Virus record (IMG/VR): IMGVR_UViG_3300025693_000001
DNA: 39,306 nt
Source of the DNA: a virus
Lineage: Duplodnaviria; Heunggongvirae; Uroviricota; Caudoviricetes
Direction: 5' to 3' (one strand)
Every line of letters begins with the position of its first letter. The first letter of the stretch is position 1. The notes beneath the pieces are model-generated. The model ran no database searches. It saw nothing but the letters and a program-made list of their open reading frames with translations, and was not told the origin of the DNA. Below, piece after piece: positions 20,375 through 38,917 of this stretch. A program made the translations under genes and the position numbers.

Positions 20375-20441
20375 ATAGTTGTCTTTTTATATCAATGTAG
20401 CTATTATAGCTACATTGATTAACAAAACAGAGAGAAATAAA

Positions 20442-20669
20442 ATGTCTAGAACAGTTAAAGAATTACATGATCATTTCAAAGAAATGCTTGATAAGGGTTA
20501 TGGTGATGCGTTGGTTGATTTCTGTGTAATACCAGAAGATGGTGAAGATGCTATTGATGTTGATTTGGATAGTAGTTGTGTTGCTGATGATACAGATTGC
20601 GAAACGACTATTATACATGCATTACTGCATGAATATCCACATGATAATAAATTAACGTTTGAAGAATAA
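20442..20669 (+). CDS. acidic hypothetical protein
   Basis: RTVKEL start; own promoter. Confidence 0.8.
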   Translation: MSRTVKELHDHFKEMLDKGYGDALVDFCVIPEDGEDAIDVDLDSSCVADDTDCETTIIHALLHEYPHDNKLTFEE

Positions 20670-20734
20670 AAGTTGTCTTTAAATATTAATGTAGTATAAT
20701 AGCTTTATTGATTAACAAAACAGAGAGAAATAAA

Positions 20735-21055
20735 ATGGCTGCAGTAAAATTGAGCATGAAAACATTAGACGATTCTGGTATTATTTCACATTCAAGTGAG
20801 AACAAAAACAAACAAACGGTGTTGATTTCATATGGTGGTTTGATGTACAGAATTACTGTTAACCATGATAGTTATGAAAGACAATCGTACGTTAGATTGG
20901 ACGTAATGTCAACAGAAAGAGAATGGACGTTTATCAAATCTGTAAATCCGCACGATTATACAGGACTAAGCTATGTAAGTCAAGTACCATATACTGGTCC
21001 AATTGCTGATTTGAAAAAAGTGATTAAAAAGACTTATGAAGTAACACCAAAATAA
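20735..21055 (+). CDS. hypothetical protein
   Basis: Own promoter module. Confidence 0.8.
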   Translation: MAAVKLSMKTLDDSGIISHSSENKNKQTVLISYGGLMYRITVNHDSYERQSYVRLDVMSTEREWTFIKSVNPHDYTGLSYVSQVPYTGPIADLKKVIKKTYEVTPK

Positions 21056-21120
21056 GTTGTCTTTTTGTATTGATGAGGTATAATAGCCTCATCAATTAAC
21101 GAAACAGAGAGAAAATAAAA

Positions 21121-21375
21121 ATGTTTACATCAACAACATCAACAATATCTAACCTTACAACACTATCACAAGTTAAATCACACGTTTGGGTTGGTAATGC
21201 TCATTCAGATCTATCTGCGTTTATGGCGATTGATAAACTCGTACAAGATACAACTGTTACAATTGAAGATCGTGCAGAATCATTACGTATTATGTCAGAT
21301 AAAGGTATGGGTTGTGGTCGTGATGAACAAATAACTGATGCTGACCTGGTACAGAATTATCTTGATAGTATGTAA
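21121..21375 (+). CDS. hypothetical protein
   Basis: Own promoter module. Confidence 0.8.
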   Translation: MFTSTTSTISNLTTLSQVKSHVWVGNAHSDLSAFMAIDKLVQDTTVTIEDRAESLRIMSDKGMGCGRDEQITDADLVQNYLDSM

Positions 21376-21391
21376 ATTAAATAGTTGACAA

Positions 21392-21422
21392 AGAGGTGGA
21401 TCTAGTATCCACCTTTCTTTTT
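21392..21422 (+). terminator. repeated terminator, copy 4
   Basis: Same stem as 17301. Confidence 0.9.
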
Positions 21423-21556
21423 GTTTTTTATATTAGTACATTCGAATATTATAATGTTATAATATTCGAATAAGCTTATACTAAAACAAATTGTTGTCTT
21501 TAAATATAAATGTAGTATAATAGCTTTATTGATTAACGAAACAGAGAGAAAATAAA

Positions 21557-21889
21557 ATGTTTAATTTTAATAATATGACTACCAAATTTGCAAAAGTATT
21601 ACTTGAAGAAATTGGTGGTTTAAGTGAGCAAGATTTTGGTGAGCTTGAGTATATTAAGTTGTTTGATGTCACGTACGATAGATACGAAGAGAAGACAACT
21701 TATATATACAAAATCGTATTCGAAGATGATAATGAAGGTGGTTGGTTTAGAACATCATTAATTGTCGATGTTGACAAATTGGGTGAATGTGTATCAATTG
21801 ATTATTCTGGTTGCCCTGATCACGAACTTGCTTACCCAACTGAGCAATCTGCAATTGATGGTTGTAATCATGTGAATTTCGAAGAATAG
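21557..21889 (+). CDS. hypothetical protein (paralog of 37976-38320)
   Basis: GG..I..F.V.Y..Y.Y.I..DD..T.L.V.VDK..DYSGC..H. Confidence 0.8.
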   Translation: MFNFNNMTTKFAKVLLEEIGGLSEQDFGELEYIKLFDVTYDRYEEKTTYIYKIVFEDDNEGGWFRTSLIVDVDKLGECVSIDYSGCPDHELAYPTEQSAIDGCNHVNFEE

Positions 21890-21897
21890 GTTGACAA

Positions 21898-21928
21898 AGA
21901 GGTGGATTTAGTATCCACCTCTTTTTTT
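21898..21928 (+). terminator. repeated terminator, copy 5
   Basis: AAGAGGTGGAT-TTAGT-ATCCACCTCTT + T tract. Confidence 0.9.
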
Positions 21929-22072
21929 GTTTTTTGTATTAGTATATCCGAATATTCTAATATTAGAATATTCGAGAACCAAATAAATGAAAAATAAACA
22001 AATAAAAGGTTGTACATTTATATGAATGGTGGATAATAGCCTTTATCGGTTAACAACACAGAGAGAAAACAA

Positions 22073-22855
22073 ATGCAAGTATCATCAGAAGTTAAACAAC
22101 AAGTAACTACTACACTACAATCATGCATCGACGTTGCAAATAAGCATTATGGTGTTGATATTCAGTTTCCTACAGTTGTATATAAAAAACGAGGATCTAC
22201 AGCAGGAACAGCTAATTATGGTACAAACACAATTGATTTGAATCCTGTGTTGTTAATGAATAATATTGATGCATTCATGAAACGTACAGTACCACATGAA
22301 ATGGCTCATTTAATCACTGATGAAATCGATCCTAAGTCCCATCAATCGTTTTTAGGACGAAAGAGACAACCACATGGAAAAACGTGGAAATCAGTAATGA
22401 GAGTGTTAGGTGCAGATCCTTCAAGATGTCATGACTATGATGTTTCATCAGTTGAACGAAAACGTAGTTCATACGAATATAAATGCGAAGAATGTGGTGA
22501 AAATTTAACGATGGGTGTTAAACGTCACAACAAACAACAACGAGCGTTAAGAAGTGGTTTGAATGCATATAGCCACAGTGGTTGTAAAGGTGCAAAATTG
22601 ATTTGGGTAACTGGGGATTTCACACCTGTTCGTAAAATTGCAGCTGATGCACCAACTCAACCAAAAAGACAACAAGAGCCTACAAAAATTCGTGTTTCAA
22701 AAAAGACAACTGCAATTACAATTTTTAATAACGAAAATGGACATGAAGGAACACACAGAGCAAAAATCATCAAACGCTACATGACTGAATTGGAAATGTC
22801 AACTGCAGGAGCATCAACCTACTACAGTAACATCAAAAAGGGAACATGGGCATAG
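22073..22855 (+). CDS. SprT-like zinc metalloprotease with C-terminal ASTYY helical module
   Basis: AGTA..IDLNP.LL, VPHEMAH (HExxH), PHGKTWKSVM..LG..P.RCH.Y, YKCEECG. Confidence 0.9.
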   Translation: MQVSSEVKQQVTTTLQSCIDVANKHYGVDIQFPTVVYKKRGSTAGTANYGTNTIDLNPVLLMNNIDAFMKRTVPHEMAHLITDEIDPKSHQSFLGRKRQPHGKTWKSVMRVLGADPSRCHDYDVSSVERKRSSYEYKCEECGENLTMGVKRHNKQQRALRSGLNAYSHSGCKGAKLIWVTGDFTPVRKIAADAPTQPKRQQEPTKIRVSKKTTAITIFNNENGHEGTHRAKIIKRYMTELEMSTAGASTYYSNIKKGTWA

Positions 22856-22874
22856 AAATTAAATAAGTTGACAG

Positions 22875-22905
22875 AGAGGTGGATTTAGTATCCACCTTTC
22901 TTTTT
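22875..22905 (+). terminator. repeated terminator, copy 6
   Basis: Same stem as 17301. Confidence 0.9.
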
Positions 22906-23039
22906 GTTTTTTGTATTAGTATATCCGAATGTTCTAATATTAGAATATTCGGAAAAGCTTATATAAAAATATAATGTTGCCTTTTAATATAAATGTAGTA
23001 TAATAGCTTTATTGATTACAACAACAGAGAGAACACATC

Positions 23040-23249
23040 ATGGCTCATATTACAATATTACAACAAACTTTCAGATCACTAGATCGCTTATATGATGTAT
23101 TAGAAGGTACTGATTATGCAGATGAGATAGAGGGAAGTGAATTTCCAGCAACACAAGCTAGAGCAGTTCAGGATAAAGTCAACAGTTTGTTGACAGAACT
23201 TGAAAATATTATGCCTGGATTACAAGCTGAAATTAACGACAAAAAGTAG
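23040..23249 (+). CDS. hypothetical helical protein
   Basis: Own promoter module. Confidence 0.78.
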   Translation: MAHITILQQTFRSLDRLYDVLEGTDYADEIEGSEFPATQARAVQDKVNSLLTELENIMPGLQAEINDKK

Positions 23250-23308
23250 TTGTCTTTTAATATAGATGAGCTATAATAAGCTCATCTATTACAGAACTGG
23301 AGAACAAA

Positions 23309-23695
23309 ATGTTTGAAGCTATAGAAGAAGGTCGTAAGTTATATGAACAGAAGTTTGTTTATTGTGGTTTTTATGATAACCTTTCTGAACATTTAATTAC
23401 CACACTGTTTGGTGAGCAGTATTTTGTTATTAAAATCACAGGGTGTGTTAGTGGATTTGGAATGGATTATAGTGTAGGGATTGATGCAGGTGGAAAAGGA
23501 CATGGCTTTACTACAAGAAAGGAAGCAGGTCAACGAAGAGATCAAATTCGTCGTAAGCAAAAAGGTTCTAGAATGTACAAATCAGTTGTTGTCCAAGGTA
23601 AGGATATGGTAGCTAAATTGGATATGATGAAAAACGTTTGTAGAACAAAACACAACCAATCAGTTTTTTCGGTAAATTTAACGTACAGTTATTAG
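23309..23695 (+). CDS. hypothetical protein
   Basis: Hairpin-type promoter, GGAG RBS. Confidence 0.8.
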   Translation: MFEAIEEGRKLYEQKFVYCGFYDNLSEHLITTLFGEQYFVIKITGCVSGFGMDYSVGIDAGGKGHGFTTRKEAGQRRDQIRRKQKGSRMYKSVVVQGKDMVAKLDMMKNVCRTKHNQSVFSVNLTYSY

Positions 23696-23773
23696 TTGTC
23701 TTTTAATATTAATGTAGTATAATAGATTTTGTGGTAGGGATTGGCCTTACCACTTCAACAAGGAAACAATACC

Positions 23774-23986
23774 ATGGCTGCAGAAGATTATACAAAAGAA
23801 CAATACAACGAACATCTACACGACCTTGTAGATGGACCATTTTACATAATCGAAGAGGATAATATAGTATCTTTAGTTCGTGTTACTGGTGAGGTAATCA
23901 CAACTGGTGATTATGAACATGTGGCTAAAAGAGCATATCTGATCCTTAAAGAAAATGGATGTTTATACAGTCTGATTAACGATTAA
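23774..23986 (+). CDS. hypothetical protein
   Basis: ATG 23774 after AGGA; structured leader. Confidence 0.75.
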   Translation: MAAEDYTKEQYNEHLHDLVDGPFYIIEEDNIVSLVRVTGEVITTGDYEHVAKRAYLILKENGCLYSLIND

Positions 23987-24054
23987 TTAGTTGTCTTTTT
24001 ATATTGATGAGGTATAATAGCCTCATCAGTTAACAAAACAGAGAGAAATAAAAA

Positions 24055-24345
24055 ATGTCTAATAATAAAACAATTCACTCAGATACATCATCAATCACAA
24101 TTGATTATAGAGCTACAAACGAAGCTCAAAACTTATATAAGTTAATATTTGAACCACAATCAACATCTACCTCATCACAATTCCGTGAAGTAGAATTGCA
24201 CATCCTAGCAAACAAACGGTGGTCTAAAATCCACACATTGTTAGAATGTCATGGAGGACGTGAGGTCATCGGTGAAGCACGTTTATCAGCTACGATCGAT
24301 TGCATGTATGAGTACATCGAAAAGATTAATGGTTATATGTCTTAG
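24055..24345 (+). CDS. hypothetical protein
   Basis: Own promoter module. Confidence 0.78.
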   Translation: MSNNKTIHSDTSSITIDYRATNEAQNLYKLIFEPQSTSTSSQFREVELHILANKRWSKIHTLLECHGGREVIGEARLSATIDCMYEYIEKINGYMS

Positions 24346-24407
24346 TTGTTGTCTTTAATTATAGATGTGCTATAATAAGCACATCTATTAAAGAACTGGA
24401 GTACGAA

Positions 24408-24629
24408 ATGGGATCTACTAGAAATCGCAATACATCGAACCGTAATTGGTTTGAAACATTAAACGAAGCGTTAGAATCGGAAGGGTTAGTTGATTTGTGG
24501 CCATTAGGTGTTACGCTTAGTTATGGTGAGACATATCGGTTTACAGCTGATGATGGTAGTAAGTTTGGTAGATTGATTAGCATATTCAGAGAGACAGATG
24601 GGAGGTATGAACGTCCCATACATTACTAA
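24408..24629 (+). CDS. phage hypothetical protein
   Basis: WFETLNEALESEGL..ISIFRETDGRYERPIHY. Confidence 0.8.
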   Translation: MGSTRNRNTSNRNWFETLNEALESEGLVDLWPLGVTLSYGETYRFTADDGSKFGRLISIFRETDGRYERPIHY

Positions 24630-24633
24630 TAAC

Positions 24634-24661
24634 AAAAAGACTACTTCGGTAGTCTTTTTTT
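24634..24661. terminator. bidirectional-type terminator with UUCG loop
   Basis: AAAAAGACTAC-TTCG-GTAGTCTTTTT. Confidence 0.9.
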
Positions 24662-24782
24662 GTCTGCAGTATGTGAATTCGAATATTATAATGTTGGAAT
24701 ATTCGAATTCACTACTGGGTATGAGTTGTTGACATTAGGGTGTTGGTGCGTATAATAAGGGTCACCACTAAAGGAGATGACT

Positions 24783-24926
24783 GTGTATGACAACCAATTA
24801 CTGATAGGACGTACAAACTTGCAGAAACAAATGATTTATGCGATGTTAGATGCTATAAACACTGAACGTCCGTATACAGAATTGTATTGGTACCTTCCGA
24901 TTTATAATAGATGGGAGCATGAATAA
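24783..24926 (+). CDS. small hypothetical protein (~47 aa)
   Basis: TTGACA-16-TATAAT at 24729, AAGGAG RBS; GTG 24783 (or ATG 24777); stop 24926. Confidence 0.6.
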   Translation: MYDNQLLIGRTNLQKQMIYAMLDAINTERPYTELYWYLPIYNRWEHE

Positions 24927-24992
24927 ATAGTTGTCTTTAAATATAAATGTAGTATAATAGCTTTATTGATTAACAAAACCGAGAGAAATAAA

Positions 24993-25409
24993 ATGAACAA
25001 CAAAACAAGAAATATCGCATTAGTATCAAAAGCAGAGATTGCAACTATGACAACTGCAATGTCAATTCAAAATGATATCATCGGTGATACAGTTACTGAT
25101 GACCTTTACATCCCAGATGGTGGGCAAGAAGTAACGGCCGGTCAGATGGTCACCATTCGTATGGCTGTTGAGCATCGTATTGATGTGTTAGTGTTAATCA
25201 CGTATATGCTTGCAGTTTTACCATTAATGAATCCAGAGGGTGATTTCATTCATCTAACAGATCGTGAGTATGAATTGTTACACTATGAACTTGAAGGTTA
25301 CTTAGCCATGATTAAAGATATGGTTGGTGAAGATTTAGATGGTACTACACTTAACAGTAGAGTACAACACATAGTTGATGTTAATATGTTACTACTCAAA
25401 TTCAGATAA
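24993..25409 (+). CDS. hypothetical protein
   Basis: Own promoter module. Confidence 0.8.
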   Translation: MNNKTRNIALVSKAEIATMTTAMSIQNDIIGDTVTDDLYIPDGGQEVTAGQMVTIRMAVEHRIDVLVLITYMLAVLPLMNPEGDFIHLTDREYELLHYELEGYLAMIKDMVGEDLDGTTLNSRVQHIVDVNMLLLKFR

Positions 25410-25471
25410 TAGTTGACTTAATATATAGATGAGCTATAATAAGCTCATCTATTAAAGAACAGGAGTACGAA

Positions 25472-25696
25472 ATGTTTAAAGCAAATCAACGAGTGACATA
25501 TGTCAATTCTGTTAATAACACATCGATGTGTGGTGTTGTTGAAATGGTTAAGGATGGTATTGCTATAATGTCCTCGGGTGAGTTTGGGGGTATGGGTCCG
25601 TTTTCAATGACATTCAAAGCTGACTCTGGTAAAGGAACTGGTGAGTATTTCGGTACACACATAGTAGATGGTCATCATTCACAGGAATCATTATGA
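25472..25696 (+). CDS. hypothetical small beta-barrel-like protein
   Basis: MFKANQRVTY..GVVEMV; AGGAG RBS. Confidence 0.78.
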   Translation: MFKANQRVTYVNSVNNTSMCGVVEMVKDGIAIMSSGEFGGMGPFSMTFKADSGKGTGEYFGTHIVDGHHSQESL

Positions 25697-25800
25697 ATAC
25701 TGCATTAGAGTTGATTTATCATTTGTCACCATATATGGTTGTTGGATTTGGTTTGATTGTTGTTACGATGTGGTTTGAAAACAAGGAGCCTAATGACTAA
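25693..25800 (+). CDS. small membrane peptide (35 aa)
   Basis: My translation MNTALELIYHLSPYMVVGFGLIVVTMWFENKEPND; ATGA overlap. Confidence 0.55.
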   Translation: MNTALELIYHLSPYMVVGFGLIVVTMWFENKEPND

Positions 25801-25963
25801 TCTGTTAGCGGTAATGCCACTCATATGTGAATTCTGTGAGTGGTTATCCATCAGCATTGATTATATCGATGCTGATAGTACAGTAATCGAACGTACGGTA
25901 CAAAAGGTTGTATTTGTGTTACCTTTCTTTGTTCTGTTATTCATACACTATTCGGAGTCGTAA
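25793..25963 (+). CDS. small membrane protein
   Basis: ATG 25793 after AAGGAG; C-terminal hydrophobic stretch. Confidence 0.6.
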   Translation: MTNLLAVMPLICEFCEWLSISIDYIDADSTVIERTVQKVVFVLPFFVLLFIHYSES

Positions 25964-25978
25964 GGCTCCTTTTTTTTA
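25954..25978 (+). terminator. intrinsic terminator
   Basis: GGAGTC-GTAA-GGCTCC + T8. Confidence 0.8.
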
Positions 25979-26105
25979 TACACATACATATCCGAATATT
26001 CTAATATTAGAATATTCGGATATGCTTATACTAAAATAGATAGTTGCCTTTTAATATCAATAATGTATAATAGCTTTATTGATTAACAAAACAGAGAGAA
26101 ATAAA

Positions 26106-26363
26106 ATGAACAAGTTTAAACGTGGTTTAGTATCAGGTGTAGTTCGTAAGAAAGTTAAGAATGAAATATATGGTCAATACGTTGACAAATGTGTAAAAAG
26201 CGTTAAGTATAAATTCTTTGTATCAAAACAATCCGATAAAGTTATTAACAAAATTCACAAAAAGTTAAAGAAACTAGGTTTAACGGATTTTGATGTTGTA
26301 AACTATAAAGCAAAAGGATGGCGTGGTAAGTACAACAAATTAATTGTTACAGTAAATTATTAA
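26106..26363 (+). CDS. basic hypothetical protein
   Basis: Lys-rich; own promoter. Confidence 0.78.
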   Translation: MNKFKRGLVSGVVRKKVKNEIYGQYVDKCVKSVKYKFFVSKQSDKVINKIHKKLKKLGLTDFDVVNYKAKGWRGKYNKLIVTVNY

Positions 26364-26431
26364 TTAGTTGTTGTCTTTTTATACAGATGCGCTATAATAA
26401 GCGCATCATTTAACAAAACAGAGAGAAAATC

Positions 26432-26623
26432 ATGCCACATAAAACAGCAACGTATAACCTAACAGTATCAGCAAATACTAAAGTTGTAACAAATGCAAAT
26501 GGTAGTACTACAATTACATTTGAGAAACAAGTGCCTGACGATAGTTACGATGAAGATGATGAAGGCAAAATGCAAAATGACATGTTGTGGGAAGGATTTG
26601 GCCACGATTTTGAAATAAAATAA
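26432..26623 (+). CDS. hypothetical protein (paralog of 29936-30175)
   Basis: ATY.LT..A.T...TN..GS.TI..E...QN.MLWE.F.HDF. Confidence 0.8.
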   Translation: MPHKTATYNLTVSANTKVVTNANGSTTITFEKQVPDDSYDEDDEGKMQNDMLWEGFGHDFEIK

Positions 26624-26687
26624 TAGGTGTCTTTTTATATAGATGCGCTATAATAAGCGCATCATTTAACAAAACAGAGAGAAAATC

Positions 26688-26909
26688 ATGCCACAAATTC
26701 TATTAAAAAACCAAGATAATGATGAGCTACTTGATATTGATCAAGAGACGTTTGATACGATTGAGAACTTATTGTTGACAGCAGTTGACAAAGAAGCTGA
26801 ATGGGAGGTTGTTGAAGATGTGTTAGATAAGTTGTTAGCTAAAGGGAGAGTATCAGCTACAATGGCTACTATTGATTTCACAGCAAATAAACCAAATTAC
26901 CATTTTTAA
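26688..26909 (+). CDS. acidic hypothetical protein
   Basis: Promoter/leader almost identical to preceding gene's. Confidence 0.78.
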   Translation: MPQILLKNQDNDELLDIDQETFDTIENLLLTAVDKEAEWEVVEDVLDKLLAKGRVSATMATIDFTANKPNYHF

Positions 26910-26972
26910 ATGTTGACTGGCAGAATCAATAAAGTATAATAGCTTTATTGATTCACTAATCGGAGAGCTGAA

Positions 26973-29761: not shown

Positions 29762-29768
29762 TTTCCCC

Positions 29769-31710: not shown

Positions 31711-31729
31711 AATTTCAGGGAGAAGTACA

Positions 31730-32095
31730 ATGGCAAGAACAGTAAACAAAAATTCTAAAAGACAACGAATATTTGCTAGACTTGATGGGTTATCATCAAT
31801 CAAACGAGCAGCAGCAGCTAAGATTATCGTTGATGAATTTGAGGTATCCACTTCATATGCAATGACTTTGTTTCAGAACCACAGACAGATTCGAAGTAGT
31901 GAAGCTACAGGTGATGGATTTGTAACCATATTTAAAGTACGTGACACAAGAAGTAATGCACCAGTTGACCCATACATGTCAAGTATGGTAAAGAATAATC
32001 CTGATGAAGATGAAGCAAGAACTGAATCAGCAGCAATTAAATCGTACATATCTCGTAACATAGAGAAGAATGTAATAGCGGACGGACTATCATGA
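31730..32095 (+). CDS. protein with divergent N-terminal ASTYY-like module
   Basis: KRQRIF..R..I..EFEVSTSYAMTLFQN. Confidence 0.75.
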   Translation: MARTVNKNSKRQRIFARLDGLSSIKRAAAAKIIVDEFEVSTSYAMTLFQNHRQIRSSEATGDGFVTIFKVRDTRSNAPVDPYMSSMVKNNPDEDEARTESAAIKSYISRNIEKNVIADGLS

Positions 32096-32817
32096 GCTAC
32101 AATATAGAAAAACGCCACCTATATAATCAGCAACAGGGCAAGTGCTATTATTGCAAAGAACAAATGCTACCACTACCCAAACCCGGGCAGGTTGAGCAAT
32201 CCGATTTAACACCAACCTTTGATCATAAGATACTGAAGAAGAATGGTGGGTTGGGTACTATTATGAATGGGGTGTGTGCTTGTCGTAGTTGTAATTTGTT
32301 ACGTAGTAGTATCACATTCAATGTGTTTGTTGGAGCAGTATATGATCAACCATCCAAGCAAGCATTTATTCAAGCAAAGAATGACAACATGCTACGTTAT
32401 GCCGATTTCCATGAATGGGAAAAGAAATACCCATCATGTACGATGACATTAGCTCGTCAACGATATGAGGCATTACACTCACCACAACCGATCAAACAGG
32501 TATCACCTACACCAGTTGTACGTCAACTAAGTACCACAGAACCATTGCTTGTTCCAATAAGCAGAAAGAAACGTAAGCTGGCTGAACGGTTAGCAAACAA
32601 CAGAGCTGTGTTAGCATCTCAGCATGGTAAGTGTTTATGTTGTGGTACTCATACATTGGATTTTGGTAGAACGTACGATGATCTAACATTGGAGGAGTTC
32701 AAGGTTAGTGTGTACCGACCAATGCGATTTCGTGACTATGTTGCTTGTAAAGGTTGTTATGATCTGAAAAGAAACCCAAACAAGTTGTTGACTTTTTTTA
32801 GAAATCTGCTAAAATAG
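32092..32817 (+). CDS. HNH endonuclease
   Basis: CYYC..TFDHKILKKNGG..N.VCACRSCN; second CLCC..CKGC module. Confidence 0.88.
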   Translation: MSYNIEKRHLYNQQQGKCYYCKEQMLPLPKPGQVEQSDLTPTFDHKILKKNGGLGTIMNGVCACRSCNLLRSSITFNVFVGAVYDQPSKQAFIQAKNDNMLRYADFHEWEKKYPSCTMTLARQRYEALHSPQPIKQVSPTPVVRQLSTTEPLLVPISRKKRKLAERLANNRAVLASQHGKCLCCGTHTLDFGRTYDDLTLEEFKVSVYRPMRFRDYVACKGCYDLKRNPNKLLTFFRNLLK

Positions 32818-32848
32818 ACACATCTTTCAAAGAAACGGGATTACCGAA

Positions 32849-33196
32849 ATGGCTAAGAACAAAATTGTAACAAGAGATTCACTGCAAGCGATGTTGGATA
32901 AAGACAACACCGATTATGTTCAATTAGTCATCGGTAAAGCCCTAACAGCTTTATATGATTATCAAACAGCCGAGGAGCAGAACGCTCACGCCACAGTAGA
33001 ACACAACGGTGTGGGGTTTACTGGTGCAGATGCACGTTCAGGTAGCAAGACAGCTATCTTTTGGAGTAAGCACCACAAACTACTTGACTGGCAGATCGAT
33101 ATGTGGACTAAGAAAGGTTCACGTGGGTACTCTCGATTAGCTAAGTATCATGCTCAGCTAAATCGAATTGCAGAAGATAAGTTGACTTCTGCATAG
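32849..33196 (+). CDS. phage hypothetical protein
   Basis: LY..QT.EEQ..T..NGVGF...DA motif. Confidence 0.8.
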   Translation: MAKNKIVTRDSLQAMLDKDNTDYVQLVIGKALTALYDYQTAEEQNAHATVEHNGVGFTGADARSGSKTAIFWSKHHKLLDWQIDMWTKKGSRGYSRLAKYHAQLNRIAEDKLTSA

Positions 33197-33215
33197 ATAC
33201 ATGTATAATAGCTAT

Positions 33216-33472
33216 ATAGATTAACGAATACAAAGCTCCTTATGAAACGGGAGCGTTTGTGGTAAGAAGGACATGCGTTGGGTCCTTCGCGATGGTGGCG
33301 CGAGCAATCGATAGGGGGCCAATCATCAACTTATTTTGCTTATTCATGTTTTGCTCTTTGGATGCTTGGGTCTACCCTATAAGTCATCTCCAGGTTCAGC
33401 ACTACCGTCCTCTCTCTTCGGTGGTGCGTTCAGAAGCCAGTAGCTACTCTCTCTTGCTACTGGCTTTTTTTT
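33216..33472 (+). ncRNA. putative structured small RNA (~255 nt) with two CU-rich anti-RBS loops
   Basis: Promoter TTGACT-16-TATAAT (33182-33209) with no RBS/ATG; hairpins 33230-33260, 33266-33288, ~33311-33380, 33399-33427, 33435-33465; ends in T8; 5' end estimated. Confidence 0.75.
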
Positions 33473-33596
33473 GTCTATAGGAAATGCATATCCGAATATT
33501 CCAACATTCGAATATTCGGATATGTATAGCCAGTTGCCTTTTTATATCAAGGTGGTATAATAGCTCTATTGATTAACAAAACAGAGAGACCACCAC

Positions 33597-33899
33597 ATGA
33601 GTACTTTATTCGCACAAACCATTCTTACTCACCTAACACTGGATGAGTCATTATTAAACCCCCACGACATGGACTCGTATGATTCGTATACCGTTCCCGA
33701 TGATACCGTCGTTCAAGTATCACCAAACGATCGTGACGATCCTGACTTCTATACCGTGACGTATGTTCAAGTGATGAACAGAACTAAGAATGGGTGTGGT
33801 AATGTTATCATCTTTCAACTAGAAGGGTTACCAGAAGATCCTGCTTCGTTTGATGCTTTGTCAGAGGTTCAGGTTAGAATATACACCCGAACCATTTAA
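33597..33899 (+). CDS. acidic hypothetical protein
   Basis: Own promoter module. Confidence 0.8.
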   Translation: MSTLFAQTILTHLTLDESLLNPHDMDSYDSYTVPDDTVVQVSPNDRDDPDFYTVTYVQVMNRTKNGCGNVIIFQLEGLPEDPASFDALSEVQVRIYTRTI

Positions 33900-33965
33900 T
33901 TGTTGGTTGCCTTTTAATATGGATGAGCTATAATAAGCTCATCTTAAACAGAACCGGAGGAAGAA

Positions 33966-34199
33966 ATGAGTAAGTTTGATCGCATCGTAGAAGTTAATGG
34001 AACGACTAATACCCTGACAATCAACGGTGTAACATATGAACGCCAATACATTGCTGAAGTCATAGAAGATATGTTGTCAGCCGAAGGGTCTGATAATACT
34101 GAAGAGAATAGGATGTCTGCTATGACTACACTGAATATCACTTCATACCTAACGGACATAACAAAGGAACAACAAGAAATGTTTTTTACTTTCGGTTGA
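33966..34199 (+). CDS. hypothetical protein
   Basis: Hairpin-type promoter, GGAGG RBS. Confidence 0.8.
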   Translation: MSKFDRIVEVNGTTNTLTINGVTYERQYIAEVIEDMLSAEGSDNTEENRMSAMTTLNITSYLTDITKEQQEMFFTFG

Positions 34200-34252
34200 T
34201 CCCTATACCAATTAGTAGTATACTATCCATTCAACAAACACCGGAGGGATGA

Positions 34253-34474
34253 ATGGGAGAATTAGAAGTAGCAATAATGGACAGGTGTTCACTAATAGCG
34301 AATGACACACGGATGGTAGATGCTTTGGTAGCAGAGTATCATGACAAGTATAGTTCAACAACATTTAACATAGAAGAGTGCAACTCAATCAAACTACTCA
34401 TTCTTCAACCTGACCACTTGCGGTCAATTGCAGTGGAACAATTAACCAACGAGGGTATTATACCAACACATTAA
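34253..34474 (+). CDS. hypothetical protein
   Basis: GGAGG RBS; possible TTGATC-17-TATACT at 34196. Confidence 0.75.
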   Translation: MGELEVAIMDRCSLIANDTRMVDALVAEYHDKYSSTTFNIEECNSIKLLILQPDHLRSIAVEQLTNEGIIPTH

Positions 34475-34548
34475 TGAATAAATTTGGTTGACTTAACCAC
34501 TCATTAGCACTATAATAGTCACATCTTTAATAGAACTGGAGCAACAAA

Positions 34549-34701
34549 ATGTCAGAACAAGCACTAGAAGATATATTAGCAAATGCACAAGCAGAACTTG
34601 AACAAGCAATAGCAGCTAAAGATCAACAAGCTACATTCGACTTAGAAGCCCACATAGATGATCTCGAGAATGAGATTGCGATGATGGGAGAGCCAGCCTA
34701 A
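34549..34701 (+). CDS. small helical-hairpin protein (50 aa)
   Basis: My translation MSEQALEDILANAQAELEQAIAAKDQQ...; promoter 34488, GGAG RBS. Confidence 0.75.
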   Translation: MSEQALEDILANAQAELEQAIAAKDQQATFDLEAHIDDLENEIAMMGEPA

Positions 34702-34729
34702 ACCAAACACCACACATGAGAGTAATACT

Positions 34730-34753
34730 AAACCACCTTCGGGTGGTTTTTTT
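34730..34753. terminator. terminator with UUCG loop
   Basis: AAACCACC-TTCG-GGTGGTTT + T tract. Confidence 0.9.
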
Positions 34754-34767
34754 ATGTCCACATAATA

Positions 34768-34877
34768 GTGTGATGATTGTGGCATGATAGTGGGATGATT
34801 GTGGCATGATAGTGGGATGATAATGGGATGATAATGGGATGATTGTGGCATGATTATGGGATGGGTGTGGCATGATT
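34768..34877 (+). repeat. degenerate 11-bp tandem array (RTGKSATGATW), 10 units
   Basis: GTGTGATGATT, GTGGCATGATA, GTGGGATGATT...; first unit identical to the 16024 array unit. Confidence 0.9.
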
Positions 34878-35161
34878 GATTTCTAATTTTTACATCCAGT
34901 AAATCATACACACATCAACTACCACATAACCCACCACATTAGGTTGTATAGTGGAGTACTTTGGTGTTGCAGTATCACTGTATATGTCTTTGTTGTGAGC
35001 GTGTTGTATGGGTAGCACTTGTGGTATGGGTTGATAGCTGTCCATTCTCTGATCGTGCTCTATGGCTCTTGTGTATACATTCAAGTACTCACGTACTCAT
35101 GATGGGTATCAATTGATATGCATGTGTGTACGGGTTTATGATGTGTTGTCACCACCTGTGG

Positions 35162-35224
35162 GTGGGTGTAACACATGTTGATGTGGGTGTAACACATGTT
35201 GATGTGGGTGTAACACATGATGAT
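35162..35224 (+). repeat. 21-bp tandem repeat x3
   Basis: GTGGGTGTAACACATGTTGAT x2 + GTGGGTGTAACACATGATGAT. Confidence 0.92.
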
Positions 35225-35394
35225 GTTGATGTAAAGGGTATTGAATAATGTTTTTAAATATTTAAAATATTATTACTAACATTATATAATAAAAAATATA
35301 AAAAATCAACATTTATTTTTATTATTTCCATATCCATATATCCATATATTCGAATATTCGAATATTCGGAAACACTGATATAGTGCGCGGTTAG

Positions 35395-35655
35395 TTAAGA
35401 GCCCATACTAAGTAGGAGCCCATACCACATGAGTGGATAGGTTGGTTGGGTATGTCTCATTGGATCGAATACCTGATAGGAGTGAGTGATGTGGTTATCT
35501 CTTCCGGTATGAGCTGAGTAGCATACTGTTGTAAGTGTGGATGGTTTGGTGTGTATACCTGCATATGCACGTCTCTCAACTGTTTCTATAATTGATTCCA
35601 CCATCAACACATTAAGTTGCAATAAGTTTAGGATGAACTGGATTAGGTATGTCAT
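35395..35655 (-). CDS. hypothetical protein
   Basis: Minus-strand promoter module 35717-35690; leader lacks GAGAG RBS. Confidence 0.55.
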   Translation of the reverse strand: MTYLIQFILNLLQLNVLMVESIIETVERRAYAGIHTKPSTLTTVCYSAHTGRDNHITHSYQVFDPMRHTQPTYPLMWYGLLLSMGS

Positions 35656-35988
35656 ATTGTTTGGATGTGGTTTGTTAATCAATAAAGCTATTATACCACA
35701 TTAATATTAAAAGGCAACTCTGCATATCTGTCTCCCCAGCTCACACATTAGCATTTTCGAATATTCGAATATTATAATATTCGAAAGTACTAATATGAAA
35801 TTAATTTAAAATAATTGTTGTATTTTTATATATTTAAAGTATAATATATTAAATGAAATCAAACAAATTAAAAAATAAATTAATTAAAAATATATTAAAT
35901 AATATTTTATTTAATTTTAAATATTTGTTTAATTTTATATATAAATGTAGTATAATAATATTTTAATTAATAAAAAAGAGAGATAAAA

Positions 35989-36231
35989 ATGAATAAATTT
36001 AAAGTAGTTGATTTAATAAAAAATATTAAAAGAATGAATGAAATGGTTGACAAATTGGAAGAAATGGATGAGGATTGTGAAGTATTATTTGGATATGATG
36101 AAGGAGGTTATTGTGTTGGTGGTGAAGAAATATTAAATTTGAAAATTGATATTAATATTGATAATGAAGATGAATATTATAAAAATGGTATTGTGTGTGT
36201 TGATGTTGAAGTTGAAAAATCTGAAGATTAG
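35989..36231 (+). CDS. acidic hypothetical protein
   Basis: AAGAGAGA leader; nearly C-free coding strand. Confidence 0.78.
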   Translation: MNKFKVVDLIKNIKRMNEMVDKLEEMDEDCEVLFGYDEGGYCVGGEEILNLKIDINIDNEDEYYKNGIVCVDVEVEKSED

Positions 36232-36242
36232 TATATAATGAT

Positions 36243-36995
36243 ATAATAATATATTAAATGGATTTAATATATTATTTAATTGTTGATTTTTTTGTAAATG
36301 TGTTGTTTGTTTTTATATAAGGGTTATCTAATATTCGAATATTATAATATTCGAATATCATTACATAAAAACAAAAATAATATTAAATCCATTTAATATT
36401 ATTTAATCAATCTATTTTATCCAACCATATCACTTATCCAAACTTTCAAACTATCCACATAATCAACCAACTTAACCTCTCTAATCTCCTCTTTATACCA
36501 TCTTATATCATCATCACCAACCATATCACATTCACTCACCATATCATTAAAAATCTCCTTCTCTAAATCACACAAATCACTACAAATCATTTCATTCAAT
36601 TTAACAACATCACCACCACACTCATCACCACCTAATAAATTAATTACAATACTACCTTCATTAATATATACCAACATTTCAATTCTCTCTTTTTTATTAA
36701 TTAAATTTATATTATACACCATTTTTAAATTAAATATAATATAATTTAATAATATTTTAATTTTTATATTTAATATTTTAATAATAATATTTTAATAAAT
36801 TTATTAAATTTATTAATTAATTTAATTTAAAAATATATTATATAATATATATTAATACAAAACAACTATTATTTTATATATTAGTATTTCCGAATATTAT
36901 AATATTCGAATAACATTATATAAAAAACAAACATCAATTTTAATAAAAGTCAACAATTAATAATATATTAAATCCATTTAATATATTATTAATTC
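36243..36995. repeat. ~110-bp imperfect inverted repeat (about 36243-36358 and 36885-36995)
   Basis: Shared ATAATATATTAAATGGATTTAATAT..TTGTTGA.TTTT..TGTTTGTTTT.TATATAA..TTCGAATATTATAATATTCG. Confidence 0.75.
36417..36677 (-). CDS. acidic hypothetical protein
   Basis: ATG 36677 after AAGAGAGAA; TATAAT at 36716-36711. Confidence 0.72.
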   Translation of the reverse strand: MLVYINEGSIVINLLGGDECGGDVVKLNEMICSDLCDLEKEIFNDMVSECDMVGDDDIRWYKEEIREVKLVDYVDSLKVWISDMVG

Positions 36996-37001
36996 ACTAA
37001 C

Positions 37002-37238
37002 CTAACTACCTTTTCTAATTATCTCATAACCATAATCAACAAATTTAACCTTCATATAACCCTCAATACTTTCAACAATATCCATATCATCAAAATCCTC
37101 TAACCACACATCAAAACCTTCTTCTTCTACATTACACAACAACCTTAACACCTCATACTCATCACCACACTTCATTTCCTTTCTCTCAACAACTACACCA
37201 ACACTATTTAAACATAATATAATATAAACATTTAACAT
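37002..37238 (-). CDS. acidic hypothetical protein
   Basis: TTGTTT-17-TATAAT and GAGAG RBS. Confidence 0.72.
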   Translation of the reverse strand: MLNVYIILCLNSVGVVVERKEMKCGDEYEVLRLLCNVEEEGFDVWLEDFDDMDIVESIEGYMKVKFVDYGYEIIRKGS

Positions 37239-37455
37239 TTTGGTCTCTCAATTAATTAACTTAAAAACATATTATATAACATATATTAATATAAAACAAC
37301 CATTATTTTAATTAATTTGTATACTAGTACTTCCGAATATTATAATATTCGAAAATACTAATATATTAATATAAAATTAATTTAATAATAAAGTTGCTTT
37401 TTTATATCAATACTGTACAATAGCTTTATTGATTAACAAAACAGAGAGATACTAA

Positions 37456-37722
37456 ATGTTTTTATATAAAAGAATTATTAAAAGAAATGACGAAATAGTT
37501 TTAATCGATAGTATTATAGTCAAAGACTATCAACGAGATATCAAATCTAGTTTAATACTATTTTTACAAAATAGTGATTACTGTTGGATTTCAAATGGTG
37601 AGAGTACTGAGTATATTGAAAATGTTATTAATACTGAATTTGAATTAATTGACGATAATTATATTAGTGTTTACGAATCTGATACAAACGAAATGACTGA
37701 AATATATTATTGTAAAATCTGA
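37456..37722 (+). CDS. hypothetical protein
   Basis: Own promoter module. Confidence 0.78.
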   Translation: MFLYKRIIKRNDEIVLIDSIIVKDYQRDIKSSLILFLQNSDYCWISNGESTEYIENVINTEFELIDDNYISVYESDTNEMTEIYYCKI

Positions 37723-37975
37723 TTAACAAATAACAAAATATATCAACACAAGGATGTGTTGATATATTTATAATATAATGATTCCCGAATATTCGAATAT
37801 TATAATATTCGAAAGTACTAATATGAAATTAATTTAAAATAATTGTAGACTTTATATATATTTAAAGTATAATATATTAAATGGAATTAAATAAAAACAC
37901 ATATAACAATTTATTAATTATATTAATAAATAATTATAATTTAATTTCATATATTACTATTCCATTATATTAGAG

Positions 37976-38320
37976 ATGACTACTATGAAAATGTTAAAAA
38001 AAGTACAAAAATTGTTAAGTAATAAAGCTGTTGACTTTTTGGTTGGAGTGGGGGGGTATGATAGAGATATTATGGAAATGGATGAAATAAATGTTGTCTT
38101 TTTGGATAATATAAAATACAACAAATTGAATAACATAATCGAATATCAGTATTTTATAACATACTACAATAATTTGGATGATGAGTTTTGTACAACTATT
38201 TTGGAAATAACTGTTGACAAAAATAACAAAGTGATAGGGTGTGACTTTTCAGGTTGTAATTTACACAGTGGTTTTAAGTCTCACACAGAAGCTGAGAATT
38301 CTCTAAAAGTCAACAGTTAA
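37976..38320 (+). CDS. hypothetical protein (paralog of 21557-21889)
   Basis: GG..I..LDNIKY..YQYFI..DD..TILEITVDK..DFSGC.LH; start uncertain. Confidence 0.75.
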   Translation: MTTMKMLKKVQKLLSNKAVDFLVGVGGYDRDIMEMDEINVVFLDNIKYNKLNNIIEYQYFITYYNNLDDEFCTTILEITVDKNNKVIGCDFSGCNLHSGFKSHTEAENSLKVNS

Positions 38321-38716
38321 TTTAATATATAATAAGTGGTTGTATTTTTGTATTAAAAATTGTATAATATCTTTTTTAATTAATTAAATAAATTATAAAA
38401 TTATGTTTAACAAAACAAAAAAAGCATATTTAATAATCAACAGTTATTATTTTTATTATATCATTTTAAATCCATATATTCAAATATTCAAAAAACAATT
38501 AATAATCAACATTAATAACTCAAACATTCAAATAACATTATACAAATAAACTAATTTAATATAATAATATAGTCATATATTATTATATTTTTTATATTAT
38601 CAATACCGAATATTATAATATTCGAATATTCGAATAACATTATAACAAAACAAATGGTTGTCTTTTAATATTAATAATGTACAATAGCTTTATTGATTAA
38701 CAAAACAGAGATACAT

Positions 38717-38857
38717 ATGCAACATACAGAACCATTTGAATATGAACTTTTAATGTCATCAGAAGATCACTTGAAATTAGTCAAAATTGGTAAGATTATT
38801 GTTAATAGTATTATAAGCTTAGGTACAATTTTATTAGGAATTGTTGTATATATTTAG
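38717..38857 (+). CDS. small membrane protein (46 aa)
   Basis: My translation ending IIVNSIISLGTILLGIVVYI; promoter 38658. Confidence 0.65.
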   Translation: MQHTEPFEYELLMSSEDHLKLVKIGKIIVNSIISLGTILLGIVVYI

Positions 38858-38917
38858 TTGACTATTTGAATCAATATAGTATAATAGCTATATTGATTCA
38901 AACAAAGAGAGAATAAA

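What the first reader, a model, noticed from the sequence alone, without database searches (positions are those of the whole stretch)
20379..38899. -10 box displayed in the loop of a hairpin with compensatory covariation
Seen: the stem changes but pairing is kept around (T)ATAATA(G): ATAGATGAGCT/AGCTCATCTAT (23262, 25425), ATAGATGTGCT/AGCACATCTAT (24361), GATGCGCT/AGCGCATC (26386, 26642), GATGAGCT/AGCTCATC (33922), ATTGATGAGG/CCTCATCAAT (21069), CGATGAGG/CCTCATCG (30551), GAATCAATAAAG/CTTTATTGATTC (26923), GAATCAATATAG/CTATATTGATTC (38868), ATCAATGTAGCT/AGCTACATTGAT (20391). The common AATGTAG/CTTTATT form pairs mainly with G-U, hinting at RNA. The 5' arm lies upstream of the TSS, so the hairpin exists only as a DNA cruciform or in read-through RNA from the previous cassette. 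Inference: supercoiling-gated promoters (cf. N4 hairpin promoters), RNase processing sites that split read-through RNA per gene, or recombination hairpins.
Basis: partly seen in the sequence, partly recalled or inferred. Interest (0 to 1): 0.82.

Follow-up and report, generated by a model that had tools for sequence, protein, structure and literature searches.

The report
Promoter cassettes with hairpin around -10
In an uncultivated giant phage, about a third of some 40 repeated early-promoter cassettes carry a real, co-varying hairpin that encloses the -10 box; this is the promoter-plus-stem-loop (PeSL) design already known from T4-like phages, and it most likely acts in read-through RNA, not as a new way of switching promoters.

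Summary
12 of 41 cassettes fold into 8-16-bp hairpins with (T)ATAATA(G) in the loop (RNA dG -12.8 to -18.3, z -5.6 to -7.7). With relatives there are about 16 different stem sequences. 9 of 11 stem positions show compensatory double changes, which no shuffle matched (0/500).

The abundant 'common' form is not a significant hairpin (z -1.5 and +0.3; no fold as DNA).

The design matches PeSLs (promoter-early stem-loops) of T4-like phages (PMC2839356), where stems 'overlapping the -10 box' are described. I found the same geometry directly in phage phi1. A more distant relative (L058) puts the hairpin inside the spacer, the other common PeSL position.

Three results point to a role in read-through RNA:
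- Strong hairpins occur only in cassettes that directly follow an ORF (12/27), never after a terminator (0/14; p=0.003).
- Non-Watson-Crick stem positions are G.T on the + strand (12), never A.C (0).
- The likely transcription start lies inside the 3' arm.

There is no U tract, so these are not canonical terminators. Gene order and cassette halves differ between relatives, as in PeSL shuffling. Supercoil gating is disfavoured.

This scan has already noted PeSL-like cassettes in other phages, with the hairpin in the leader. Verdict: a new member of a known kind.

The parts
16920..39160 (+). Array of about 39 plus-strand promoter cassettes. Each has the upstream stop codon in an AT-rich stretch, -35 TTGTCT/TTGACT, a 16-nt spacer, TATAAT, a conserved A-rich leader, GAGAG/GGAG and ATG, in front of a small ORFan gene. 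Two further copies lie on the minus strand, with -10 boxes at 14857 and 35695.
   Evidence: no Pfam family for the cassette proteins tested
20391..20419 (+). Perfect 14+1+14 palindrome ATCAATGTAGCTAT-T-ATAGCTACATTGAT. The -10 (TATTAT, 17-nt spacer) lies inside the stem.
   Evidence: I21; RNA -16.2, z -6.0; DNA -11.4
21069..21096 (+). Hairpin ATTGATGAGG / tataatag / CCTCATCAAT around the -10
   Evidence: (-15.1, z -6.6)
23262..23289 (+). Hairpin ATAGATGAGCT / ataata / AGCTCATCTAT
   Evidence: -15.2, z -5.9
24003..24030 (+). It differs from 30549-30576 only by one compensated pair.
   Evidence: -15.1
24361..24388 (+). Hairpin ATAGATGTGCT / ataata / AGCACATCTAT (A-T to T-A relative to 25425)
   Evidence: -15.0
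25425..25452 (+). Hairpin ATAGATGAGCT / ataata / AGCTCATCTAT
   Evidence: -15.2
26386..26407 (+). Hairpin GATGCGCT / ataata / AGCGCATC
   Evidence: -13.5, z -5.6
26642..26663 (+). Hairpin GATGCGCT / ataata / AGCGCATC. Tandem duplicate of the previous cassette; its -35 is GTGTCT.
26923..26954 (+). Hairpin GAATCAATAAAG / tataatag / CTTTATTGATTC. The common 3' arm is paired with a perfectly matching 5' arm.
   Evidence: -15.2, z -6.0
30549..30576 (+). Hairpin ATCGATGAGG / tataatag / CCTCATCGGT
   Evidence: -16.3
33921..33944 (+). Hairpin GGATGAGCT / ataata / AGCTCATCT. Its ortholog in relative L012 (4587-4629) has two uncompensated mismatches.
   Evidence: -12.8 against -1.9 in L012
38865..38902 (+). 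Hairpin TTTGAATCAATATAG / tataatag / CTATATTGATTCAAA, the longest at 15-16 bp
   Evidence: -18.3, z -7.7; DNA -12.3
20677..20719 (+). Example of the 'common' cassette (about 25 copies): ATTAATGTAG / TATAATA / GCTTTATTGAT. Only a marginal RNA hairpin.
   Evidence: -4.5, z -1.5; DNA -0.2

Best explanation
These are PeSL-type composite elements: compact early-promoter cassettes of an uncultivated phage of about 325 kb. In about a third of them, the promoter-proximal part of the spacer (8-15 nt) and the 8-15 nt after the -10 box are reverse complements.

Shown:
- Pairing is conserved while the sequence changes, giving compensatory substitutions in the window and in four related phage lineages.
- The same cassette family in a more distant relative keeps a hairpin but places it inside the spacer.
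- Strong hairpins occur only where an upstream gene runs into the cassette with no terminator between.
- Mismatches inside stems are G.T on the sense strand only.
- The hairpins lack a U tract.
- Cassette halves and whole promoter-gene modules are exchanged between relatives.

Inferred:
- The cassette's own transcript starts at the invariant A 7 nt after the -10, inside the 3' arm. The full hairpin therefore forms only in RNA that reads through from the upstream cassette.
- In that RNA it acts as an intercistronic stem-loop: a barrier to 3' exonucleases for the upstream message, and/or a processing or pause/attenuation signal. It would tune how much each small gene depends on read-through rather than on its own promoter.
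- The -10 ends up in the loop because the spacer and the bases just after the -10 are the only unconstrained positions in a 60-65-nt intergenic region. The loop is not there to present the -10 to RNA polymerase.
- As in PeSLs, the conserved cassettes also serve as homology for modular gene shuffling.
For: Same cassette layout as PeSLs:
- this window; phi1.
- PMC2839356 states that the stem-loops are most commonly between -35 and -10 or overlapping the -10 box.
- phi1 promoters with the -10 enclosed by a stem were found directly, e.g. TGCGGTTAA-tcTATAAT-AACCGCA.

Covariation:
- (0/500 shuffles; 9/11 pairs with double changes).
- Pairs of closest cassettes.
- New stems in relatives: ATCAATGAGC/GGCTCATTGAT, TGGTGAGCT/AGCTCACCA, TTGATAGGGTC/GGCTCTATCAA against TTGTTAGGGTC/GGCTCTAACAG, and others.
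- Spacer hairpins that also co-vary in L058: GGTCAT..ATGACC, GCTCAT..ATGAGC, GTTCAT..ATGAAC.

Action at the RNA level:
- 0/14 first-in-cluster against 12/27 internal cassettes are strong (Fisher p=0.003). Pooled with relatives p=1.5e-5.
- The same trend holds in the L058 lineage (1/6 against 10/14, p=0.05).
- 12 G.T against 0 A.C inside strong stems.
- The A-T at the presumed start site is nearly invariant.

Shuffling:
- L012 carries homologous pieces in a different order, with junctions at cassettes.
- L019 has a 5' arm ATCAATGAGC paired with a foreign 3' arm where L014 has the perfect stem.
Against:
- 15 of 27 internal cassettes lack a strong hairpin, so it is dispensable.
- The hairpin is lost in orthologous cassettes of close relatives (window 33929 against L012 4605; L014 2760 against L019 2493), which argues for weak or fluctuating constraint.
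- First-in-cluster promoters belong to a larger repeated module (terminator, palindrome, promoter; 86-90% identical). The position rule could therefore reflect shared descent rather than selection.
- The wobble counts are partly non-independent.
- There is no U tract, so the terminator activity measured for one RB49/phi1 stem-loop cannot simply be transferred.
- Stems of 8-16 bp are short for RNase III.
Confidence: 0.55

Rival explanations
1. No function of its own. The near-palindrome around the nearly self-complementary TATAATA is perfected again and again by intrastrand template switching during replication (quasi-palindrome correction) and by short-patch gene conversion between cassettes. 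Compensatory-looking changes then arise from mutation, not from selection.
For: - Window 26923 is exactly the common 3' arm with its reverse complement as 5' arm. Window 20391 is the common 5' arm with its reverse complement as 3' arm, and there the palindrome even runs through the -10 at the cost of the consensus (TATTAT).
- L014 2760 and L019 2493 differ by a 4-base patch confined to the 3' arm.
- Hairpins are gained and lost between close relatives.
- Most cassettes work without one.
Against: - Template switching yields perfect Watson-Crick palindromes. It does not explain stems that keep G.T wobbles on one strand only (L022).
- It does not explain the absence of hairpins at terminator-preceded promoters.
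- It does not explain single compensated pairs in otherwise identical cassettes (24013 and 30559).
- It does not explain retention of a hairpin when its location moves into the spacer (L058).
Confidence: 0.2
2. DNA-level switch. Negative supercoiling extrudes a cruciform at the promoter, either presenting the single-stranded -10 to sigma-70 or, as in the synthetic Horwitz-Loeb promoter, repressing it. Early transcription would then follow the topology of the injected DNA.
For: - The 12 strong copies are also stable as DNA hairpins (-7 to -12.3 kcal/mol).
- They have an AT-rich centre, which favours extrusion (general knowledge).
- A synthetic precedent exists: Horwitz and Loeb 1988, cited in PMC6060812.
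Against: - About 25 cassettes with the same -35/-10 have no DNA hairpin at all.
- The L022 stems need G.T pairs, which become A.C on the other strand.
- Loops of 6-8 nt with 8-11-bp stems are poor cruciform formers (general knowledge).
- The position rule has no DNA-level rationale.
- The start site would be buried in the stem.
Confidence: 0.1
3. The hairpin is the recombination signal itself. A structure-specific nuclease or recombinase would recognise the folded strand or cruciform and drive excision and capture of promoter-gene modules, in the manner of PeSL mini-circles or integron attC sites.
For: - Modules are relocated and cassettes are chimeric between relatives.
- The structure is conserved while the sequence is free, and strand-specific wobbles are also attC-like features (knowledge).
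- An HNH endonuclease gene lies in the array (32092-32817).
Against: - Junctions seen here fall in the leader or at the -35 edge as well as near the -10, as expected from plain homologous recombination over about 70 bp of identity.
- Most cassettes that have evidently moved have no hairpin.
- No recombinase was identified.
- The position rule is not predicted.
Confidence: 0.1
4. The inverted repeat is an operator for a dimeric phage or host regulator that overlaps the -10 and shuts early promoters off.
For: Dyad symmetry centred on the -10 is typical of repressor operators (general knowledge).
Against: The half-site sequence is not conserved: about 16 different stems with compensatory changes. 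Most cassettes lack the symmetry. A protein would read sequence, not complementarity.
Confidence: 0.03

Closest known systems
PeSLs (promoter-early stem-loops) of T4-like phages RB49/phi1, T4/PST and KVP40/nt-1 (Arbiol et al. 2010, PMC2839356; Comeau et al. 2014, PMC4122927)
   Same: - Same layout: upstream stop codon in an AT-rich stretch, sigma-70-type -35/-10, a stem-loop inside or overlapping the promoter, a short A/C-rich leader, SD and ATG.
- Placed in front of small ORFan genes in dense arrays.
- The stem sequence varies while pairing is kept, with G-T pairs noted.
- Both published main positions of the stem occur in this phage clade: spacer, and overlapping the -10.
- Relatives differ by gain, loss, relocation and chimerism at the cassettes.
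- Even the leader resembles phi1 (CATCAAAACGAAAC against CATCAATTAACGAAAC).
   Different: - The host phage is an uncultivated phage of about 325 kb whose relation to T4 could not be established.
- The stems are AT-rich and variable, not Gn-loop-Cn.
- The geometry is very regular (loop ATAATA or TATAATAG).
- The only PeSL stem-loop tested as a terminator is the spacer type, which is followed by TTATAAT. The type with the -10 in the loop has no U-rich tail.
- Terminator activity and mini-circles were not tested here.
Intercistronic stem-loops that shape polycistronic mRNA (REP-type 3' stabilisers in E. coli; RNase III sites between T7 early genes). From general knowledge.
   Same: Stable hairpins without a U tract lying between cistrons of a read-through transcript. 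They are strand-specific and tolerate G.U.
   Different: Here the hairpin is built from promoter-spacer and initial-transcribed positions of the next gene's own promoter. Stems of 8-16 bp are shorter than classical RNase III substrates. No cleavage or stability data exist.
Synthetic cruciform-regulated E. coli promoter (Horwitz and Loeb 1988, Science 241:703; cited in PMC6060812)
   Same: An inverted repeat at a sigma-70 promoter, so that a cruciform could control initiation.
   Different: That promoter is engineered. Here most copies cannot form a DNA hairpin, and the wobble asymmetry and position rule argue for RNA.
Phage N4 early promoters (hairpins used by the virion RNA polymerase). From general knowledge.
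   Same: A hairpin at the promoter; it is dependent on supercoiling in N4.
   Different: N4 promoters have short stems with 3-nt loops, carry conserved bases read by a phage RNA polymerase, and lack sigma-70 -35/-10 boxes. Here the boxes are sigma-70 consensus and the stems are free in sequence.
PeSL-like promoter-hairpin-RBS cassettes noted earlier in this scan in phAPEC8-type and giant coliphages (e1-265764, e1-330430, e1-225709; unchecked notes)
   Same: Arrays of tiny early genes, each with a portable promoter-plus-hairpin unit that marks the seams of gene exchange.
   Different: In those phages the hairpin lies in the transcribed leader. Here it straddles the -10, so the cassette's own transcript lacks it.

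Membership tests
PeSL (promoter-early stem-loop) cassettes | Repeated sigma-70-like early promoter (-35, about 17-nt spacer, -10) | tested here: met
   41 copies; TTGTCT/TTGACT, 16 (rarely 17) nt, TATAAT
PeSL (promoter-early stem-loop) cassettes | [quoted passage not shown] | tested here: met
   For example TAAATAG-TTGTCT; the stop lies 0-9 nt from the -35 in internal cassettes
PeSL (promoter-early stem-loop) cassettes | A sequence able to form a stable stem-loop within or overlapping the promoter (five positional subclasses, including overlap with the -10) | tested here: met
   Met in 12 of 41 window cassettes. The rest are marginal. Same geometry seen in phi1. Spacer subclass seen in relative L058.
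PeSL (promoter-early stem-loop) cassettes | Shine-Dalgarno sequence and start codon of the downstream gene at the 3' end | tested here: met
   GAGAGA or GGAG, then ATG 30-45 nt after the -10
PeSL (promoter-early stem-loop) cassettes | Association with ORFans in hyperplastic regions; relatives differ by insertion, deletion or replacement at the cassettes | tested here: met
   No Pfam family for 10 cassette proteins. L012 has novel genes and a different order, with junctions at cassettes. A 3.8-kb segment (34.76-38.6 kb) is absent between homologous flanks.
PeSL (promoter-early stem-loop) cassettes | Stem-loop attenuates or terminates transcription coming from upstream | not testable with these tools
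   By sequence there is no U tract, and none is called terminator-like.
PeSL (promoter-early stem-loop) cassettes | Recombination between flanking cassettes yields mini-circles | not testable with these tools
   Needs inverse PCR or reads
PeSL (promoter-early stem-loop) cassettes | Carried by a T4-like (Straboviridae) phage | tested here: inconclusive
   The genome is not held and there are no isolate relatives. Hints only: a Phage_T4_Y00F gene beside the homologous gene in L056, and an unchecked note on T4-type late promoters elsewhere in the genome. TATAAATA is not enriched in this window.
Intrinsic (Rho-independent) terminator | G+C-rich stem followed directly by a U tract | tested here: not met
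   None of the -10 hairpins is among the 18 terminator-like sites. The true terminators of the array are separate elements.
N4-type hairpin promoter | Short hairpin with a 3-nt loop and conserved bases, read by a phage virion RNA polymerase, with no sigma-70 boxes (from general knowledge) | tested here: not met
   Consensus sigma-70 boxes, 6-8-nt loops and stems free in sequence
Known RNA families (Rfam 15, including self-cleaving ribozymes) | Match at the gathering score | tested here: not met
   0 matches in the whole window

The most novel reading that the evidence does not exclude
The hairpins are structure-specific recombination sites that fold from one DNA strand, like integron attC sites. 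They would let this giant phage excise, capture and reorder promoter-gene cassettes through a dedicated nuclease or recombinase, making the array a phage 'integron' with sites that are free in sequence but conserved in structure.
Probability: 0.07. Interest if true: 0.8.

Novelty: new member of a known kind. Interest (0 to 1): 0.4.

Why it matters
PeSLs were described from a few cultured T4-like phages, and the role of their stem-loops has hardly been tested.

What this case adds:
- The same design in an uncultivated giant-phage clade.
- Clean covariation evidence that the pairing itself is maintained.
- The observation that the hairpin can move between the spacer and the flanks of the -10.
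- A simple positional rule: hairpins occur only where read-through can transcribe both arms. This turns 'what is the stem-loop for?' into a cheap reporter or RNA-end-mapping experiment.

It also warns against reading such palindromes as promoter 'display' devices.

Tried and rejected
- Megablast of 6.8 kb against 50,697 phage records: no match.
- tblastn of the conserved 171-aa cassette protein against the same records: no match.
- Three IMG/VR pattern scans gave only chance hits (L001-L011, checked).
- The single metagenome scan gave one true relative, L012.
- No whole genome is held.
- Rfam at gathering score: nothing.
- PHROGs and Pfam on flanking and cassette proteins did not place the phage taxonomically.
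- The T4 late-promoter box TATAAATA is not enriched in the window.
- More distant relatives L017 (61% aa) and L018 (54% aa, a 327-kb contig) have no such cassettes.
- My automatic 'terminator within 200 nt' classifier was noisy because of spurious small ORFs. The first-against-internal classes were therefore set by eye from the sequence and from gene gaps.
- The tool-wide inverted-repeat scan was dominated by the AATATT palindromes and added nothing.
- Reading the hairpins as terminators was considered and rejected for lack of a U tract.
- Reading them as an operator was rejected because the half-site sequence is not conserved.

Full report
WHAT IS THERE

The right-hand 22 kb of the window (16.9-39.3 kb, + strand) is an array of small genes. 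Almost every gene has its own copy of one compact unit. Its consensus is aaataG-TTGTCT-tt(a/t)aatat(a/t/c)aatgtag-TATAAT-agctttattgattaacaaaacagagagaaataaa-ATG. A profile built from 38 seeds finds 41 copies with a recognisable -10, two of them on the minus strand. Separate canonical terminators (G+C-rich stem plus T run) divide the array into clusters.

The window belongs to an uncultivated phage of about 325 kb (contig length; earlier notes). No whole genome is held and no isolate phage resembles it.

CHECK OF THE OBSERVATION

The geometry is fixed: base (t-k) pairs with base (t+7+k), where t is the first T of TATAAT. This leaves ATAATA, or TATAATAG when the closing T.G is not counted, as the loop.

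Folding is bimodal:
- 12 cassettes give RNA hairpins of -12.8 to -18.3 kcal/mol (z -5.6 to -7.7, 0/200 shuffles as good) and DNA hairpins of -7 to -12.3.
- The roughly 25 'common' copies give -1.7 to -4.5 as RNA (z +0.3 and -1.5) and nothing as DNA.

So the hairpin belongs to about 30% of the cassettes. At 20391 the palindrome is perfect through the centre (14+1+14), so the -10, changed to TATTAT, lies in the stem.

IS IT MORE THAN CHANCE, AND IS THE COVARIATION REAL?

- Of 70 unique cassettes from the window and relatives, 24 reach dG <= -10. The figure is 0.56% when the two arms are shuffled and 6.4% when arms are swapped between cassettes.
- On an ungapped alignment of 47 copies, 81.6% of cells pair (74.3 +/- 1.1 shuffled) and the covariation score is 0.345 (0.223 +/- 0.017). 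Both are reached by 0/500 shuffles, and sliding the partner by 1-3 columns drops pairing to 28-57%.
- On 73 copies aligned with a covariance model, 9 of 11 pairs carry double changes against 5.4 +/- 0.9 (0/500). By the tool's own trials this measure is rarely fooled by relatedness. The alignment is fitted to the model, which biases it somewhat.
- Contrasts between closest relatives need no tree. Cassettes 24013 and 30559 differ at exactly two of 43 columns, and these are pairing partners (T-A to C-G). Cassettes 25435, 24371 and 26393/26649 carry A-T, T-A and C-G at one pair. In relative L022, 565 and 872 differ by A-T to T-A.

RELATIVES

- L013 is the same phage (99.97% identity).
- L012, from the same sample, is 80-97% identical in pieces that lie in a different order.
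- The 171-aa cassette protein (26973-27485) has more than 100 homologs, and I fetched contigs for several.

| Relatives | Identity to the 171-aa protein | What their cassettes show |
|---|---|---|
| L014-L016 | 76% | Same cassettes, new stem ATCAATGAGC/GGCTCATTGAT |
| L019-L023 | 73-77% | New stems ATCAATGAGC/GGCTCATTGAT, TGGTGAGCT/AGCTCACCA, ATCAATAAAG/CTTTATTGAT |
| L022 | 71% | Four strong hairpins shifted by 1-2 nt so that exactly TATAAT(A) is the loop; stems of 15-18 bp with G.T wobbles |
| L058 | 57% | Same cassette, but a co-varying 5-7-bp hairpin inside the spacer (GGTCATggATGACC, GCTCATggATGAGC, GTTCATggATGAAC), plus two cassettes whose stem encloses the -10 |
| L017, L018 | 61%, 54% | Other promoters, no hairpin |

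Hairpins turn over quickly. The ortholog of window 33929 in L012 has two uncompensated mismatches. L019 2493 has the 5' arm of L014 2760 but a foreign 3' arm.

WHAT IT IS

The literature describes exactly this kind of element. [quoted passage not shown] They are associated with ORFans in hyperplastic regions and mediate modular shuffling (PMC2839356; extended to T4/PST and KVP40/nt-1 in PMC4122927).

I checked phi1 directly. Among its TTGACA-N17-TATAAT sites are stems enclosing the -10 (TGCGGTTAA-tcTATAAT-AACCGCA; GGGGATAT-agCATA-ATGTCCCC) and stems inside the spacer (GGGGATC-ggtG-ATCCCC). Its leaders resemble those here. Every sequence-level PeSL feature is met. The functional features (attenuation, mini-circles) and the T4-like nature of the phage could not be tested.

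HOW IT MOST LIKELY WORKS

1. The cassette's own transcript should start at the nearly invariant A 7 nt after the -10 (the A of CAT/TAT), inside the 3' arm. Only RNA reading through from the upstream cassette contains both arms. This is inference from promoter geometry.
2. Strong hairpins occur only in cassettes that directly follow an ORF (12/27). They never occur in cassettes that follow a terminator, an AATATT palindrome or a divergent gene (0/14; Fisher p=0.003). The rule holds in L014, L019 and L022 (pooled p=1.5e-5). The independent spacer-hairpin lineage L058 shows the same trend (10/14 against 1/6, p=0.05). Two caveats apply: the classes were set by eye, and the first-in-cluster promoters form a homogenised repeat.
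3. Inside strong stems the non-Watson-Crick positions are 12 G.T and 0 A.C. The structure is therefore good on the sense strand only, as expected for RNA and not for a two-sided cruciform.
4. None of the hairpins is followed by a U tract, and none is called terminator-like. The phage has proper terminators elsewhere. The one PeSL stem-loop shown to block read-through (PeSL211/210) is of the spacer type and is followed by TTATAAT.

I therefore favour an intercistronic RNA stem-loop acting as a 3' exonuclease barrier, a processing site or a pause signal in read-through transcripts. The -10 lands in the loop because the spacer and the discriminator/initial transcribed bases are the only free positions in a 60-65-nt intergenic region. 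That the hairpin can sit either in the spacer or around the -10 in sister lineages supports this packing argument.

SHUFFLING

L012 has the module 'window 38918-39112' at another place and behind a different, chimeric cassette. Homology to the window resumes inside the leader. Other homology blocks begin at the -35 edge (33906) or just upstream of it (39096). The 3.8-kb very AT-rich segment 34.76-38.6 kb is absent between homologous flanks. This is the PeSL pattern. Nothing shows that the hairpin itself, rather than the roughly 70 bp of identity, is what recombines.

RIVALS

- Mutational origin (quasi-palindrome template switching or short-patch conversion). It fits 26923, 20391 and the L014/L019 patch. 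It does not fit the one-sided wobbles, the position rule or the single compensated pairs (confidence 0.2).
- Supercoil-driven cruciform. Horwitz and Loeb 1988 is the synthetic precedent. It is disfavoured for the reasons above (0.1).
- Hairpin as the recombination site, attC-like (0.1 as stated; 0.07 for the full 'phage integron' reading).
- Operator for a dimeric protein. Nearly excluded by the covariation (0.03).

VERDICT

The element is a new member of a known kind (PeSL-type promoter/stem-loop cassettes), here in an uncultivated giant phage. It adds useful evidence on covariation, hairpin position and strand specificity. This scan has already met PeSL-like arrays in other phages, with the hairpin in the leader instead of around the -10. 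Interest is moderate.

Noticed in passing
window 17338-17371, 21425-21486, 22908-22969, 25987-26024, 33487-33524, 35330-35382, 36869-36930, 37315-37370: Long AATATT/CGAATATTC-type palindromes (up to 20+20 perfect) lie between each terminator and the first promoter of the next cluster. Together with the terminator and promoter they form a repeat module of about 170 bp that is 86-90% identical between copies.
   Followed up: partly
window 17298, 18229, 19891, 21392, 21896, 22873: Six copies of one terminator sequence (AGAGAGGTGGATTTAGTATCCACCTTTCT plus a T run), so the terminators are also a repeated family.
   Followed up: no
window 23718-23770, 31055-31100, 39135-39185; L012 351, 5722: A third cassette class has no hairpin around the -10. 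Instead it has a G+C-rich hairpin inside the leader (GTGGTAGGG...CCTTACCAC), which would be at the 5' end of its own transcript.
   Followed up: no
window 34760-38600: A 3.8-kb segment holds tandem repeats (34.76-34.87 and 35.15-35.21 kb) and a sub-array at about 20% G+C with cassettes in both orientations. It is absent between the homologous flanks in relative L012 (L012 5434/5444).
   Followed up: partly
window 33204-33470; L012 1-302: A cassette-type promoter is followed by no ORF but by a chain of hairpins ending in a terminator. This stretch is conserved at 90% in L012, so it is a likely small RNA.
   Followed up: no
window 22073-22855, 28381-28908, 29264-29719, 31158-31664: Four otherwise different cassette proteins end in the same C-terminal motif, A(G/C)ASTY(Y/H)..(I/L)K.G. 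The first also has an SprT-like domain in the JGI annotation of L013.
   Followed up: no
L058 2400-12300 (ENA ERZ23495071): A more distant relative uses the same cassette with a co-varying palindrome NNNCAT-gg-ATGNNN inside the spacer. The half next to the -10 (ATGAGC) is the same as the 5' arm of the window's class GATGAGCT/AGCTCATC, as if the partner arm had moved from upstream to downstream.
   Followed up: partly
window 26364-26910: Tandem duplication of a cassette plus gene. The promoters with -10 boxes at 26393 and 26649 are near-identical, and both genes start MPH/MPQ. The second copy has a weakened -35 (GTGTCT).
   Followed up: no
L012 4860-4905: One cassette of the relative has a 10-12-bp hairpin (CCAGTTGGTT...AACCAACTGG, RNA -17 kcal/mol) that encloses the -10. 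Its 3' arm overlaps the Shine-Dalgarno sequence. The window ortholog (about 34200-34255) has no such stem.
   Followed up: no
window 32092-32817: An HNH endonuclease gene (PHROG hits down to 4e-10) lies inside the cassette array.
   Followed up: no
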